From assembly GCF_988243305.1 (NCBI RefSeq), contig NZ_OZ547136.1: 64,000 nucleotides of DNA, one strand, 5' to 3'. Under the pieces are notes generated by a model. The model was given only the letters and a program-made list of their open reading frames with translations, made no database searches and had not been told where the DNA came from. Every line of letters starts with the position of its first letter. Within the stretch, counting starts at the first letter, position 1. This document shows positions 16,101 through 18,780 of the stretch, one piece after another. The position numbers and the translations under genes are program-made.

Positions 16101-16736
16101 CGCACCACCCGACGCTGGTCGCTGGCAGATTTTCATTCTCTGTTTGTTAATCATCCCTTTACCCGCCTGGTTACTCAGCGATTGATATGGGGTGTTTATC
16201 CGGCAAATGAACCGCGTTGTTTACTCAACGCCTTTCGTGTGGCCGCTGAGGGGGAGTTCTGCAATGAGCAAGATGAGCCAATTGACCTGCCTGCCGATGC
16301 TCTGATTGGCATTGCCCACCCGTTAGAAATGACAGCAGAAATGCGCAGTGAATTTGCACAGCTTTTTGCCGATTACGAAATTATGTCGCCTTTTCGCCAA
16401 TTGTCGCGCCGCACGGTGCTGCTCACGCCTGACGAGTCAGCCAGTAATAGTTTGAATCGCTGGGAAGGTAAATCTGCTACCGTTGGGCAACTTATGGGAT
16501 TGCGATACAAAGGCTGGGAGTCAGGCTATGAGAACGCATTTGTCTATGACCTGGGCGAGTACCGGCTGGTCCTTAAGTTTTCATCCGGTTTTAACCACTA
16601 CAATGTTGATAGCAAAGCGCTAATGAGCTTCCGTTCTCTTCATGTATACCGTGAGAATAAATCCGTCACTTTTGCCGAACTTGATGTGTTTGATTTGAGT
16701 GAGGCGTTAAGCGCACCCGACGTCATTTTCCATTAA
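13104..16736 (+). CDS. yehI: Large protein (1210 aa), paralog of YehH lacking the WGR-like N-terminus
   Basis: 1210-aa ORF; shares with yehH blocks such as FD(V/L)RLRKHL(A/S)LAEE..WQRC.DK, GEMLRF, AF.WDLFTAW..AGAP.K..WAF.AL, LDFGPRQFTV.FDE.L.P; AAGGAAAG RBS before ATG 13104. Confidence 0.85.
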   Translation: MDKELPWLADNAQVELKYKKGKTPLSHRSWPGEPVPVITESLIQTLGDELLQKAEKKKNIVWRYENFSLEWQSAITQAINLIGEHKPSVPARTMAALACIAQNDSQQLLDEIVQQEGLEYATEVVIARQFIARCYESDPLLVTLQYQDEDYGYGYRSETYNEFDLRLRKHLSLAEESSWQRCADKLIAALPGITKVRRPFIALILPEKPEIANELVGLECPRTHFHSKEWLKVVANDPRAVKKLERYWSQDIFSDREASYMSHENHFGYAACAALLREQGLAAVPRLIMYAHKEDCGSLLVQINHPQVIRTLLLVADKNKPSLQRVAKYSKNFPHATLAALAELLALKEPPARPGYPIIEDKKLPAQQKARDEYWRTLLQTLMASQPQLAEEVMPWLSTQAQAVLNSYLSAPPKTVIDSTDNSQMPEILVSPPWRSKKKMTVPRLDLAPFELTPQVYWQPGERERLAATESARYFSTESLAERMEQKSGRVVLQELGFGDDVWLFLNYILPGKLDAACNSLIVQWHYYPGRVEEIMNGWSSPEAQLAEQALRNGHVEVLINIWENDSYSRYRREKSIWNLYLLAQLPREMALTFWLRINEKKHLSAGEDYFLSIFGLDALPGLLLAFSHRPKETFPLILNFGATELALPVARVWRRFAAQRDLARQWILHWPEHTATALIPLVFTKSSDNSEAALLALRLLYEQGHGELLQTVANRWQRTDVWPALEHLLKQSPIEIYPTRIPKAPDFWQPAMWSRPRLITNNQPVTDDALEIIGEMLRFTQGGRFYCGLEQLKTFCQPQTLAAFAWDLFTAWQQAGAPAKDNWAFLALSLFGDESTARDLTTLILAWPQEGKSARAVSGLNILTQMNNDMALIQLHHISQRAKSRPLRDNAAEFLHVVAENRGLSQEQLADRLVPTLGLDDPQALIFDFGPRQFTVRFDENLNPVIFDQQNVRQKSVPRLRADDDQLKAPEALARLKGLKKDATQVSKNLLPRLETALRTTRRWSLADFHSLFVNHPFTRLVTQRLIWGVYPANEPRCLLNAFRVAAEGEFCNEQDEPIDLPADALIGIAHPLEMTAEMRSEFAQLFADYEIMSPFRQLSRRTVLLTPDESASNSLNRWEGKSATVGQLMGLRYKGWESGYENAFVYDLGEYRLVLKFSSGFNHYNVDSKALMSFRSLHVYRENKSVTFAELDVFDLSEALSAPDVIFH

Positions 16737-16795
16737 AACACAGCGGGCAGTGATGCGACTGCCCATTTTCAACACGACTTACCAACGGGAAAGCG

Positions 16796-17116
16796 ATGAT
16801 CGTGCAAAAAGAGCTGGTCGCTATTTACGATTATGAGGTCCCTGTACCTGAAGATCCGTTTTCCTTCAGACTTGAGGTCCATAAACGCTCTGAATTATTT
16901 ACAGGTTCCGTCTACCGGTTGGAGCGATTCCGGCCACATCCAACATTTCATCAACGTGATCGAGAGGATGTCGACCCGCTAATAAATGATGCATTGATTT
17001 ATATAAGAGATGAATTTATTGATGAGCGAAAATTACGAGGCGAATCACCTGAACCTGTAATAGTAATTTTTAATTGTGAACTACAGAATATATTCAACCA
17101 ACAAATAGAAAAATAG
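16796..17116 (+). CDS. yehK: Small protein of unknown function (about 105 aa)
   Basis: 106-codon ORF with ATG at 16796; conserved position between yehI and yehL. Confidence 0.7.
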   Translation: MIVQKELVAIYDYEVPVPEDPFSFRLEVHKRSELFTGSVYRLERFRPHPTFHQRDREDVDPLINDALIYIRDEFIDERKLRGESPEPVIVIFNCELQNIFNQQIEK

Positions 17117-17124
17117 CTTTATTA

Positions 17125-17148
17125 AAGGGGGAAACGGTATTCCCCCTT
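17125..17148. terminator. Hairpin between convergent yehK and the zorO-like gene
   Basis: AAGGGGG...CCCCCTT stem (17125-17131 / 17142-17148) lying between the 3' ends of two convergent genes; U-tracts are weak. Confidence 0.45.
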
Positions 17149-17169
17149 AGATGCGTTTCAATTTGCCCG

Positions 17170-17259
17170 TTACTTCAACAAATCAATCAACCGTAACAGA
17201 GCCACTAATAGCTCCAGTACGGCAATGAGCACGGTTAACTTTTGTGTCAGCGTGTCCAT
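17170..17259 (-). CDS. zorO: ZorO-like type I toxin, small hydrophobic peptide (29 aa): MDTLTQKLTVLIAVLELLVALLRLIDLLK
   Basis: 30-codon ORF on the minus strand (ATG 17257-17259, TAA 17170-17172) with an AAGGAG RBS 6 nt upstream. The single amphipathic/hydrophobic helix ending in LLK resembles the ShoB/TisB/DinQ/ZorO peptide class as I recall it. Absent from the ORF track because it is under 60 aa. Confidence 0.7.
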   Translation of the reverse strand: MDTLTQKLTVLIAVLELLVALLRLIDLLK

Positions 17260-17440
17260 CCGCTCTCCTTATTAAGGAGCGCAACACCAGCACCTTACCC
17301 TTACACTGCCTGTCGATACCGGTTTACGTATGTTGGACCACGATGTTGCACTCCGGATCAGGGCACCACCTGCAGCACCACCCGTCCGGTAGCCAGGACT
17401 TAAAATTGGTCCGATCCGGCGCAACGTCCCAACCGTCTGG

Positions 17441-17491
17441 ATTATAAATCTCATTATCTTAATTGCAACGGGGTCCACCGATGGTTATAAT
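17441..17491. promoter_or_regulatory. Back-to-back sigma70-like promoters for zorO (minus) and the OrzO-like sRNA (plus) sharing a palindromic -35
   Basis: TTGCAA at 17463-17468 is its own reverse complement; 17 bp downstream on plus is TATAAT (17486-17491); 16 bp away on minus is TATAAT (complement of 17441-17446). Predicted zorO TSS near 17433 gives a 5' UTR of about 174 nt. Confidence 0.55.
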
Positions 17492-17497
17492 TCGTTC

Positions 17498-17581
17498 GTT
17501 GGAACACGATGTTGCACAGGCTGCGGTGTTGGGCCTGAAAATAGTAAATAAAAGAACCTGCCTCACCAGCAGGTTTTTTTA
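17498..17581 (+). ncRNA. orzO: OrzO-like antitoxin sRNA (about 85 nt) predicted to pair with the zorO 5' UTR
   Basis: Consensus promoter immediately upstream; strong intrinsic terminator ACCTGC-CTCACCA-GCAGGT + T8 at 17556-17581. The sRNA segment 17501-17517 (GGAACACGATGTTGCAC) repeats plus-strand 17335-17351 (GGACCACGATGTTGCAC) inside the zorO leader, so the two transcripts are complementary over 13 contiguous (16 of 17) nt. Confidence 0.6.
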
Positions 17582-17691
17582 TTTACTGTGATCTGCTTTC
17601 CAGATATTTTTCGCTCAAACAACTAATGCGGCAAACATTTATTGCGCGTAAAATATCGTTTATTTCATTAATACATTTCAGGGATGAATAT

Positions 17692-18780
17692 ATGTCACCG
17701 CAGAATAATCATCTGCAGCGTCCGCCTGCCGCTGTGTTATACGCCGATGAACTGGCAAAATTAAAACAAAATGATAACGCACCTTGCCCGCCCGGTTGGC
17801 AGTTAAGTTTGCCTGCGGCCCGTGCTTTTATCCTTGGCGATAGCGCGCAAAATATTAGCCGTAAAGTGGTGATTAGTCCCTCCGCTGTCGAACGTATGTT
17901 AGTCACTCTTGCCACCGGGCGCGGTTTGATGTTGGTGGGGGAACCTGGCACCGCAAAATCTCTCCTGTCTGAATTACTGGCAACCGCTATTAGCGGCGAT
18001 GCCGGGTTAACCATCCAGGGCGGCGCATCTACTACTGAAGATCAAATCAAGTACGGCTGGAACTACGCCCTGCTTATCAACCATGGTCCGTCAACGGAAG
18101 CACTGGTCCCTGCCCCGCTTTACCAGGGAATGCGCGACGGCAAAATTGTCCGTTTTGAAGAGATAACGCGTACACCGCTGGAAGTACAAGACTGTCTGTT
18201 AGGTATGCTTTCTGACAGGGTAATGACGGTGCCAGAACTCACTGGTGAAGCCAGTCAGCTCTATGCGCGGGAAGGCTTTAATATTATTGCCACTGCCAAT
18301 ACCCGCGATCGCGGCGTCAATGAAATGAGTGCTGCGCTAAAGCGTCGCTTCGATTTTGAAACTGTCTTTCCGATTATGGATTTCGCTCAGGAGCTGGAGC
18401 TTGTCGCCAGTGCTTCGGCGCGTTTGCTGGCCCATAGCGGTATTCCGCATAAAGTGCCTGACGCGGTACTGGAGTTACTGGTCCGCACCTTCCGCGATCT
18501 GCGTGCCAACGGCGAAAAGAAAACGTCAATGGATACACTAACAGCGATTATGTCCACCGCTGAAGCCGTGAACGTGGCCCACGCTGTGGGCGTCCGCGCC
18601 TGGTTTTTAGCGAATCGCGCAGGTGAGCCAGCCGATCTGGTGGACTGTATTGCCGGAACCATCGTCAAAGATAACGAAGAAGATCGCGCTCGTCTGCGCC
18701 GTTACTTCGAACAGCGTGTCGCCACACATAAAGAAGCTCACTGGCAGGCTTATTATCAAGCCCGCCACCGCCTGCCGTGA
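17692..18780 (+). CDS. yehL: MoxR-family AAA+ ATPase (362 aa)
   Basis: Walker A GEPGTAKS, Walker B-like VRFEEI, sensor-1 IIATANTR and LKRRF arginine region visible in translation; AGGGA RBS before ATG 17692. Confidence 0.85.
   Translation: MSPQNNHLQRPPAAVLYADELAKLKQNDNAPCPPGWQLSLPAARAFILGDSAQNISRKVVISPSAVERMLVTLATGRGLMLVGEPGTAKSLLSELLATAISGDAGLTIQGGASTTEDQIKYGWNYALLINHGPSTEALVPAPLYQGMRDGKIVRFEEITRTPLEVQDCLLGMLSDRVMTVPELTGEASQLYAREGFNIIATANTRDRGVNEMSAALKRRFDFETVFPIMDFAQELELVASASARLLAHSGIPHKVPDAVLELLVRTFRDLRANGEKKTSMDTLTAIMSTAEAVNVAHAVGVRAWFLANRAGEPADLVDCIAGTIVKDNEEDRARLRRYFEQRVATHKEAHWQAYYQARHRLP

What the first reader, a model, noticed from the sequence alone, without database searches (positions are those of the whole stretch)
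17441..17491. Divergent toxin and antitoxin promoters share a single palindromic -35 hexamer
TTGCAA (17463-17468) is self-complementary and is correctly spaced to a TATAAT on each strand (17 bp on plus, 16 bp on minus). RNA polymerase binding for the two transcripts would therefore be mutually exclusive, giving a built-in competition between toxin and antitoxin transcription.
Basis: seen in the sequence. Interest (0 to 1): 0.4.

Follow-up and report, generated by a model that had tools for sequence, protein, structure and literature searches.

The report
Zor/Orz toxin-antitoxin promoters share -35
This is the already published back-to-back promoter pair of the E. coli zor/orz toxin-antitoxin locus, where one TTGCAA hexamer serves as the -35 element for both genes; the geometry is real and strictly conserved, but nobody has tested whether it makes the two genes compete for RNA polymerase.

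Summary
ATTATA-16-TTGCAA-17-TATAAT lies at 17441-17491. It is the only divergent promoter pair sharing a -35 in the 64-kb window, and none appeared in 200 shuffles at 10/12 or better per promoter.

The locus is the known zor/orz type I toxin-antitoxin module between yehK and yehL. It has a 29-aa ZorO-identical toxin on the minus strand and an OrzP-type sRNA on the plus strand (Rfam RF02083, 101 bits).

Published start sites fit both -10 elements. The 174-nt zor 5' UTR puts zor +1 at 17433. Cappable-seq in MG1655 and EDL933 maps a start 194 nt upstream of yehL, which is exactly 17498.

Across eight core variants from E. coli and three other Escherichia species, the three hexamers and the 16/17 spacing never change, while 18 of 33 spacer positions vary.

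The hexamers are already published for both promoters (Wen 2014 Fig. 1A; Shore 2024 Table 3). No paper I could search says it is one shared element or discusses competition.

Mutual exclusion of RNA polymerase follows from the geometry. Whether it matters quantitatively is untested, and data from other overlapping promoters say it depends on occupancy.

The sister system tisB/istR-1 keeps its promoters about 145 bp apart, so the sharing looks derived. Interest is low to moderate.

The parts
17463..17468 (.). Shared palindromic -35 hexamer TTGCAA, read identically on both strands
   Evidence: Invariant in 8 distinct core variants from 4 Escherichia lineages. Published as the -35 of both zor and orz, with identical conservation of 99.4%/99.4% (PMC11264685 Table 3). 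Best of all 4096 hexamers for a fully shared -35 under a simple PWM.
17441..17446 (-). zor (toxin) promoter -10 hexamer TATAAT
   Evidence: It has 7 nt between it and the zor +1 derived from the published 174-nt UTR. Invariant. 100% conserved in 2439 loci (PMC11264685).
17447..17462 (-). zor promoter spacer, 16 bp
   Evidence: Length invariant. The central 8 positions are variable, and the AATCTC and AA edges are invariant. Mean pairwise difference 0.14.
17469..17485 (+). orz promoter spacer, 17 bp (the optimal length)
   Evidence: Length invariant. 10 of 17 positions are variable, and TGGT next to the -10 is invariant. Mean pairwise difference 0.34.
17486..17491 (+). orz (antitoxin sRNA) promoter -10 hexamer TATAAT
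   Evidence: Invariant. 99.8% conserved (PMC11264685).
17433..17433 (-). zor mRNA transcription start (+1, G)
   Evidence: Published 174-nt 5' UTR and RBS at +164..+169 (PMC5397157), transferred through a gap-free alignment to O157 zorO. The original primer extension is in PMC2887945.
17498..17498 (+). Orz sRNA transcription start (+1, G)
   Evidence: OrzO cloning primers begin GTTGG directly after the AatII site. Cappable-seq places a TSS 194 nt upstream of the yehL ATG in MG1655 and EDL933, and 17692-17498 = 194. The same arithmetic holds in MG1655 and in O157 locus L001.
17498..17580 (+). Orz antitoxin sRNA (OrzP-type), about 83 nt, with terminator hairpin 17555-17575 and a U-run
   Evidence: Rfam RF02083 OrzO-P matches 17505-17580 at 101.3 bits (gathering score 60). 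The hairpin was found. Published size is about 80-85 nt by northern blot (PMC2887945).
17260..17433 (-). zor 5' UTR (174 nt), including the RBS AAGGAG at 17270-17265
   Evidence: It carries the motif AAGTCCTGGCT..ACGGGTGGTGC at +33..+58, shared with tisB.
17332..17351 (-). Orz target site in the zor 5' UTR (+83..+102): 19 of 20 complementary to the Orz 5' end
   Evidence: It lies inside the published EAP region +73..+102 (PMC5397157). It meets the published pairing requirement of 17 nt with one mismatch (PMC11264685).
17170..17259 (-). zor toxin ORF, 29 aa, MDTLTQKLTVLIAVLELLVALLRLIDLLK
   Evidence: Identical to the O157:H7 unit-1 (zorO) product; unit 2 (zorP) differs by T3S.
17127..17146 (-). 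Terminator hairpin downstream of zor (GGGGGAA-ACGGTA-TTCCCCC), followed by TTTAATAAA on the minus strand; it lies back to back with the end of yehK
   Evidence: Read from the sequence. It aligns with the tisB terminator.

Best explanation
The 51-bp core at 17441-17491 is the back-to-back promoter pair of a zor/orz type I toxin-antitoxin module, with a ZorO-identical toxin and an OrzP-type sRNA.

A single TTGCAA serves as the -35 element for both directions. Reading leftward, a 16-bp spacer and TATAAT start the zor mRNA at 17433. Reading rightward, a 17-bp spacer and TATAAT start the Orz sRNA at 17498.

The starts are 65 bp apart and both promoters need the same six base pairs. One locus can therefore hold only one sigma-70 holoenzyme at a time.

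The two promoters have identical hexamers and differ only in context. The orz side has the optimal 17-bp spacer and an AT-rich upstream flank (17 of 22 A/T), which is in fact the zor spacer and -10. The zor side has a 16-bp spacer and a GC-richer flank (12 of 22 A/T).

My inference is that orz wins most binding events. The antitoxin would then be initiated more often than the toxin mRNA, and toxin initiation would be confined to moments when the orz promoter is vacant.

Shown: the sequence geometry, the identity of the genes, the fit of both start sites, and the conservation. Inferred: steric exclusion, from polymerase footprint and sigma region 4 contacts, which is established knowledge. Also inferred: the direction of the bias. 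Not shown: that exclusion changes RNA output in vivo.
For: - Geometry and rarity.
- Gene identity: ORF identical to ZorO; Rfam OrzO-P at 101 bits; position between yehK and yehL in 5232 of 5426 E. coli genomes.
- Start sites: the 174-nt UTR and RBS at +164..169 (PMC5397157), with a gap-free alignment to zorO, give 17433. Primers and Cappable-seq TSS at -194 of yehL in two strains give 17498.
- Selection: 0 of 18 hexamer positions vary against 18 of 33 spacer positions in 8 variants (Fisher p = 4e-5). There are no indels, so the spacing is always 16/17. Per-region diversity is 0 in the hexamers, 0.14-0.34 in the spacers and 0.20-0.26 in the discriminators. Published conservation is 99.4-100% in 2439 loci.
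- TTGCAA is the best possible fully shared -35 under a simple PWM.
- The general principle that overlapping tail-to-tail promoters exclude each other is established: PMC3167631 and PMC12825309.
- Orz sRNAs are abundant in exponential phase (PMC2887945).
- Flank composition.
Against: - No experiment on this locus addresses polymerase competition. None of the zor/orz papers I could read mentions it, and Bogati 2022 is not held.
- At five natural -10-sharing bidirectional promoters, knocking down one direction did not raise the other. Competition appeared only after strong activation (PMC12825309).
- Conservation of the hexamers is explained equally well by each promoter simply needing its own elements, so it does not argue for competition in particular.
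- Toxin control in this system is already explained after transcription: an inhibitory 5' UTR, processing, and Orz pairing with RNase III cleavage (PMC3919570, PMC5397157).
- The 8 variants are not phylogenetically independent, so the Fisher p-value overstates the evidence.
- The zor start rests on a published UTR length and not on data I could inspect directly.
Confidence: 0.6

Rival explanations
1. Both promoters are real and share the hexamer, but the sharing has no regulatory meaning. Occupancy of each promoter is low enough that the two polymerases rarely meet. The toxin to antitoxin ratio is set by promoter context and, above all, after transcription. The compact layout is just what remained when a tisB/istR-like intergenic region shrank.
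For: - Competition was negligible at basal activity in all five overlapping promoters tested (PMC12825309).
- In the overlapping-promoter model, overlap need not cause interference (PMC3167631).
- zor/orz is homologous to tisB/istR-1, where the starts are about 145 bp apart. This is consistent with a deletion origin.
- Post-transcriptional control is well documented.
Against: - Both promoters are much closer to consensus (perfect -10, TTG in the -35, 16/17 spacers) than typical weak bidirectional promoters, so occupancy may be high.
- Only 5 sites of this quality exist in the 64-kb window.
- The strict 16/17 asymmetry is kept in all variants despite saturated spacers.
Confidence: 0.33
2. The palindrome is primarily the binding site of a dimeric regulator that controls both promoters together. 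Its fit to a -35 in both directions would be secondary.
For: - AATTGCAA and the flanking GG are invariant beyond the hexamer itself.
- Endogenous zorO and orzO expression is reported to respond to carbon source (PMC3919570).
- In the O-type core the palindrome extends imperfectly (CACTGAATTGCAATGGAGTG).
Against: - The extended symmetry is absent from the P-type, E. whittamii and MOD1-EC7003 cores.
- There is no LexA box, and by eye I saw no match to the CRP or IHF consensus as I recall them. This was not scanned formally.
- No regulator has been reported in the papers I read.
- Six base pairs plus two is short for a specific operator.
Confidence: 0.05
3. The match is a chance juxtaposition, and one or both hexamer sets are not used as promoters.
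For: The consensus scan by itself finds no more sites in 16500-18500 than shuffles do (2 found, 2.8 expected).
Against: - No shared pairs at this quality in 200 shuffles.
- Both mapped starts fit.
- All three hexamers are invariant amid divergent spacers.
- ZorO expression from its native promoter elements has been detected (PMC9860968).
Confidence: 0.02

Closest known systems
zorO-orzO / zorP-orzP type I toxin-antitoxin locus of E. coli O157:H7 EDL933 (Fozo 2010; Wen 2014, 2017; Shore 2024)
   Same: It is this locus.
- Same position between yehK and yehL.
- Same 29-aa toxin (identical to ZorO).
- Orz sRNA and promoter core closest to orzP: 3 substitutions in 51 bp against O157 unit 2 and K-12.
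- Same hexamers, spacings and start sites.
- The -35 TTGCAA and -10 TATAAT are already tabulated for both genes and boxed in Wen 2014 Fig. 1A.
   Different: This strain carries a single unit, not the tandem O+P pair. It combines a ZorO-type peptide with an OrzP-type sRNA. The papers I could search do not state that the -35 is one shared element, and they do not discuss polymerase competition.
tisB/istR-1 type I toxin-antitoxin locus (SOS-induced)
   Same: - Divergent toxin mRNA and sRNA.
- The toxin mRNAs align collinearly over nearly their full length (z = 12.6). This includes the 5' UTR motif, a target site ending in CAAC, the RBS hairpin, a 29-codon ORF and the terminator.
- The antitoxin promoters correspond: TTGCGC/17/TATACT with +1 GTTG in istR-1, against TTGCAA/17/TATAAT with +1 GTTG in orz.
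   Different: The tisAB and istR-1 starts are about 145 bp apart, with separate -35 elements and a LexA box over the tisAB promoter. None of the 96 tisB-type loci has a shared -35. zor/orz has no LexA box.
shoB/ohsC type I toxin-antitoxin locus
   Same: A divergent toxin and sRNA pair, with pairing in the toxin 5' UTR far from the RBS (PMC5397157).
   Different: Separate, different -35 elements (GTGACC for shoB; TTGTAA or TTGTAC for ohsC) with different conservation, and CpxR boxes in the intergenic region (PMC11264685 Table 2).
Overlapping tail-to-tail divergent promoters (Bendtsen et al. 2011; for example aroP P1/P3)
   Same: The reverse start lies within -80..+20 of the forward start (here at -65). 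One polymerase excludes the other, and interference is governed by occupancy. About 14% of E. coli promoters fall in this class.
   Different: Here the overlap is exact and symmetric: one palindromic hexamer is the -35 of both. No regulator is known, and the two products are a toxin mRNA and its own antitoxin RNA.
Bidirectional promoters with shared -10 symmetry (Warman/Grainger 2021; Forrest et al. 2026)
   Same: [quoted passage not shown] Competition was demonstrated experimentally when activity is high.
   Different: That class shares the -10 region. Here the -10 elements are 39 bp apart and it is the -35 that is shared. The authors explicitly do not count separate divergent promoters as bidirectional.

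Membership tests
zor/orz type I toxin-antitoxin system | Small hydrophobic 29-aa Zor toxin ORF | tested here: met
   ORF 17259..17170, MDTLTQKLTVLIAVLELLVALLRLIDLLK. Identical to the O157:H7 unit-1 (zorO) product.
zor/orz type I toxin-antitoxin system | Divergently encoded Orz sRNA of about 80-85 nt matching the curated OrzO-P model | tested here: met
   RF02083 matches 17505-17580 at 101.3 bits against a gathering score of 60, E = 1.8e-17.
zor/orz type I toxin-antitoxin system | Orz 5' end complementary (at least 15 nt continuous, or 17 nt with one mismatch) to the zor 5' UTR, far upstream of the RBS | tested here: met
   19 of 20 with one internal mismatch, at zor +83..+102. Requirement taken from PMC11264685.
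zor/orz type I toxin-antitoxin system | Chromosomal position between yehK (yehI side) and yehL | tested here: met
   PMC2887945.
zor/orz type I toxin-antitoxin system | Toxicity of Zor on overproduction, and rescue by Orz | not testable with these tools
   Shown for the EDL933 genes in PMC3919570. The toxin here is identical in sequence.
Overlapping tail-to-tail divergent promoters (Bendtsen 2011 definition) | Start of the opposite promoter lies between -80 and +20 of the forward start | tested here: met
   Starts at 17433 and 17498, so the opposite start is at -65. Definition.
Overlapping tail-to-tail divergent promoters (Bendtsen 2011 definition) | Polymerase at one promoter measurably reduces firing of the other | not testable with these tools
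   Needs in vitro transcription or reporters with -10 knock-downs. No such data were found.
Bidirectional promoters sensu Warman/Grainger | Divergent starts driven from one pseudo-symmetric shared -10 region | tested here: not met
   The two -10 hexamers are separate (17441-46 and 17486-91) and the starts are 65 bp apart. Class description.
tisB/istR-1 system | LexA box over the toxin promoter, and an antitoxin promoter well separated from it | tested here: not met
   No CTGT-N8-ACAG in 17380-17520. In tisB loci the box is present and the starts are about 145 bp apart.
tisB/istR-1 system | Homologous toxin mRNA (5' UTR motif, target site, RBS hairpin, 29-codon ORF) | tested here: met
   Collinear local alignment scores 65 against shuffles at 22.6 +/- 3.4. 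The motif scan recovers both families.

The most novel reading that the evidence does not exclude
The shared palindromic -35, together with the conserved 16/17-bp spacer asymmetry, is a hard-wired switch that needs no regulator. Each locus can initiate either antitoxin or toxin, never both at once, with a built-in bias toward antitoxin.

This would fix the transcriptional toxin to antitoxin ratio and damp bursts of toxin transcription. It would have arisen when a tisB/istR-like ancestor lost its LexA-controlled intergenic region and the two promoters collapsed onto one hexamer.
Probability: 0.3. Interest if true: 0.5.

Novelty: already known. Interest (0 to 1): 0.25.

Why it matters
Type I toxin-antitoxin control is usually explained entirely at the RNA level. 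If the shared -35 really forces toxin and antitoxin initiation to be mutually exclusive, zor/orz would have an additional transcriptional layer that sets the ratio and limits toxin noise without any protein regulator. It would also be a natural example of -35 sharing to set beside the well-studied -10-sharing bidirectional promoters.

The test is simple, because the three hexamers are well defined and both start sites are mapped.

If competition is negligible, the finding is no more than a compact layout of two already published promoters.

Tried and rejected
1. Genome-wide TSS tables. The Ettwiller 2016 Cappable-seq supplement is truncated in storage and holds no entry near the locus. The EDL933 table gave the orz/yehL start, but the rows for the zor genes (presumably gene numbers 15645 and 15650) are not in the stored part. 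The zor start therefore rests on the published UTR length.

2. Supplementary Fig. S4 of Fozo 2010 (the primer extension) is not held. Bogati 2022 J Bacteriol is not held.

3. Full-text searches for explicit precedents of a shared or overlapping -35 returned only noise, because the search tool cannot take '-35' as a term. My recollection that Tn10 tetA/tetR and many LysR-type regulator/target pairs have overlapping divergent promoters is unverified here.

4. Regulator-site idea. The extended palindrome around TTGCAA exists only in the O-type core and is not conserved. There is no LexA box. A resemblance of ATTGCAAC to a CytR half-site comes from memory only and was not tested.

5. Covariation between the two variable spacer cores, checked by eye on 8 variants: none seen, no formal test.

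6. A second TTGCAA-centred pair in Leminorella grimontii (L044:10017; 18/17 spacers; TATAAT/TAAAAT; 9/12). It faces a terminator and has no toxin-like ORF in the DNA held. I judge it a chance partner of an ordinary promoter.

7. Discriminator composition (zor CCAGACG, GC-rich; orz TCGTTC) as a hint of stringent control. The simple prediction, zor down in starvation, does not explain the reported fall of Orz in stationary phase, so I draw no conclusion.

8. No quantitative promoter-strength model was available offline. The claim that orz is the stronger promoter rests on the 17-bp versus 16-bp spacer rule and on flank composition.

Full report
**What is there.** The sequence at 17441-17491 reads ATTATA-AATCTCATTATCTTAA-TTGCAA-CGGGGTCCACCGATGGT-TATAAT. 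The consensus scan finds exactly two promoter-like sites in 16500-18500. Both score 10/12 and both use TTGCAA at 17463-17468 as the first hexamer. The spacer is 17 bp to TATAAT on the plus strand and 16 bp on the minus strand.

**Is it more than chance?** The exact pattern occurs once in the window and in none of 100 shuffles. A general search for any opposite-strand promoter pair sharing its -35 finds only this one in 64 kb. Shuffles give a mean of 0.01 at >=9/12, and 0 of 200 at >=10/12. In about 1 Mb of enterobacterial DNA collected later, all ten shared pairs at >=10/12 are copies of this same element.

**What it belongs to.** On the minus strand, 17259..17170 encodes MDTLTQKLTVLIAVLELLVALLRLIDLLK. 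This is identical to the product of the first zor unit of E. coli O157:H7. On the plus strand, Rfam's OrzO-P antitoxin model (RF02083) matches 17505-17580 at 101 bits against a gathering score of 60.

The locus lies between yehK and yehL, where the zor/orz type I toxin-antitoxin system was discovered (PMC2887945). Similar DNA is present in 5232 of 5426 complete E. coli genomes, though RefSeq annotates neither gene. Alignment with O157:H7 (two tandem units), K-12 (orz only), NC101 and Jnd12 shows that this strain has a single unit. Its sRNA and promoter core are of the orzP type, while its peptide has the ZorO sequence. The Orz 5' end is complementary at 19 of 20 positions to zor +83..+102, inside the published EAP region (PMC5397157).

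**Do mapped starts fit the -10 elements?** Yes, both do.
- *zor.* The zorO 5' UTR is published as 174 nt, with the RBS at +164..+169 (PMC5397157). There are no gaps between this window and O157 zorO from the ATG to the promoter. So +1 is 17433, a G with 7 nt between it and the minus-strand TATAAT.
- *orz.* The cloning primers place GTTGG directly at +1 (PMC3919570 supplement), which is 17498, with 6 nt between it and the plus-strand TATAAT. Independently, a Cappable-seq study lists a start 194 nt upstream of yehL in both MG1655 and EDL933 (PMC10469882 Table S5). The value 194 is exactly yehL ATG minus predicted orz +1 in the window (17692-17498), in MG1655 (2,204,596-2,204,402) and in O157 locus L001 (2075-1881).

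The two starts are 65 bp apart.

**Conservation.** I collected eight distinct versions of the 51-bp core. They come from E. coli lineages, E. whittamii (two units), Escherichia sp. E1V33 and Escherichia sp. MOD1-EC7003. The non-coli loci were found through a 5' UTR motif, not through the promoter.
- All 18 hexamer positions are invariant, and 18 of 33 spacer positions vary (Fisher p = 4e-5).
- There is no indel, so the spacing is always 16 on the zor side and 17 on the orz side.
- Mean pairwise difference is 0 in each hexamer, 0.14 and 0.34 in the spacers, and 0.20-0.26 in the discriminators.

This is a clean footprint showing that all three hexamers and both spacings are under selection. The variants are not independent, so the p-value is generous. 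Shore et al. 2024 report the same from 2439 loci: -35 TTGCAA at 99.4% for zor and 99.4% for orz, and -10 TATAAT at 100% and 99.8%. The identical -35 figures are what one shared hexamer would give.

**Is it already known?** Largely yes. Wen et al. 2014 box the predicted -35 and -10 elements and mark the mapped starts in their Fig. 1A. Wen 2017 does the same for zorO. Shore 2024 tabulates one TTGCAA row for both genes. I searched these texts for 'shared', 'palindrom', 'overlap' and 'bidirectional' and found no statement that it is a single shared element, and no discussion of polymerase competition. The physiology papers I could read use the 'native promoter elements' without dissecting them.

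**How it most likely works.** Established knowledge of sigma-70 holoenzyme applies here. Region 4 sits in the major groove of the -35 hexamer, and the footprint runs roughly from -55 to +20. That means a polymerase at the orz promoter covers 17443-17518, which is the whole zor -35, its spacer and most of its -10. The reverse also holds. Binding is therefore mutually exclusive. This is inference, but a strong one.

TTGCAA is the best compromise for this job. Under a simple PWM it is the top hexamer of all 4096 when scored by the weaker of its two orientations, because it keeps TTG in both directions. Any change toward TTGACA for one promoter would damage the other.

With identical hexamers, the bias between the two promoters must come from context:
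- orz has the optimal 17-bp spacer and an upstream flank of 17 of 22 A/T, which is the zor spacer and -10;
- zor has 16 bp and a flank of 12 of 22 A/T.

I infer that orz is favoured. This fits the abundance of Orz in growing cells and the general need for excess antitoxin.

**How much does exclusion matter?** This is the weak step. Bendtsen et al. 2011 show that about 14% of E. coli promoters overlap an opposite one, and that interference depends on the fraction of time a promoter is occupied, not on overlap itself. Forrest et al. 2026 tested five natural -10-sharing bidirectional promoters. They found no competition at basal activity and clear competition only after one direction was strengthened or activated, with interference also lowering expression noise.

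The zor/orz promoters are far closer to consensus than typical promoters: only five sites of this quality exist in the window. High occupancy is therefore plausible, but it is not shown. I put meaningful competition at roughly even odds, and the whole statement at 0.6.

**Comparison with relatives.** The scan with the 5' UTR motif AAGTCCTGGCT-N2-6-ACGGGKGGTG returned 107 loci across Enterobacterales. Of these, 96 have tisB-type spacing, and none of those has a shared -35 even at lenient thresholds. In tisB/istR-1 the starts are about 145 bp apart. istR-1 uses TTGCGC/17/TATACT, and tisAB has its own promoter under a LexA box. shoB/ohsC also have separate -35 elements. The shared -35 is confined to the Escherichia zor/orz clade.

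The zor and tisAB mRNAs align collinearly over nearly their full length (score 65; shuffles 22.6 +/- 3.4; z = 12.6), and the antitoxin promoters correspond position for position. The simplest reading is that zor/orz is a paralogue of tisB/istR-1 in which the intergenic region collapsed and LexA control was lost (no LexA box). This step is inference.

**Verdict.** The promoter assignment is supported by mapped starts and by conservation. The element is part of a well-studied locus, and its hexamers are already published. The competition idea is reasonable, belongs to a known class of promoter interference, and remains untested. Interest is low to moderate.

Noticed in passing
window 17120-17433 (minus strand) compared with locus L021 (E. 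coli tisAB): The zor and tisAB mRNAs are collinearly alignable over almost their full length (local score 65; shuffles 22.6 +/- 3.4; z = 12.6). The shared features are the 5' UTR motif, a target site ending in CAAC, the RBS hairpin, a 29-codon ORF and the terminator. Romilly et al. 2020 (PMC7708055) describe tisB, zor and shoB as non-homologous.
   Followed up: partly
loci L008, L010, L013, L042-L044, L080, L092: The tisB/zor 5' UTR motif, with other gap lengths, occurs in Haemophilus sputorum, Pantoea stewartii, Pluralibacter gergoviae, Leminorella grimontii (3 loci), Ca. Erwinia dacicola and Serratia marcescens. Each has a TATAAT-type promoter upstream. This suggests a wider tisB/zor-like toxin family. 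Their ORFs and antitoxins were not examined.
   Followed up: no
window 17498-17692; MG1655 2,204,402-2,204,596: The orz start is the only MG1655 TSS assigned to yehL in PMC10469882 Table S5 (distance 194). Read-through of the Orz terminator may therefore contribute to expression of yehL and the genes downstream. If so, the shared -35 would matter for more than the toxin-antitoxin pair.
   Followed up: no
locus L002 about 1000-1092 (K-12 orz-only) compared with window 17400-17491: In orz-only strains the deletion leaves the intact zor promoter plus about 29-31 nt of the zor 5' UTR. That endpoint is very close to the published delta-28 processing site. The orphan zor -10 is reported as 100% conserved in 656 such loci (PMC11264685). 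Such a start would point back toward yehK; its product, if any, is unknown.
   Followed up: no
window 17453-17460 and 17472-17481: The centres of both promoter spacers are hypervariable: 4-5 different versions among 8 units, and up to 47% pairwise difference. The adjacent zor UTR and ORF differ by only about 2%. The same patchy pattern affects the Orz body and the pairing sites. Only substitutions occur, never indels.
   Followed up: partly
window 17170-17580: This strain's single unit is a mosaic relative to EDL933. The peptide has the ZorO sequence (T3), while the promoter core, Orz sRNA and target site are of the zorP/orzP type.
   Followed up: partly
locus L044 9994-10047 (Leminorella grimontii): This is the only other shared -35 pair in about 1 Mb of held DNA, and it is also built on TTGCAA (18 bp to TATAAT, 17 bp to TAAAAT). 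It lies at the edge of the fetched DNA, next to a terminator, and is probably a chance partner of an ordinary promoter.
   Followed up: partly
plasmid hits H40-H55 (query positions 145-257 = window 17294-17406): About 48 Salmonella, E. coli and Klebsiella plasmids carry a roughly 113-bp segment 74-75% identical to the zor 5' UTR. This was also noted by Shore 2024. It may mark a plasmid-borne tisB/zor-like toxin.
   Followed up: no
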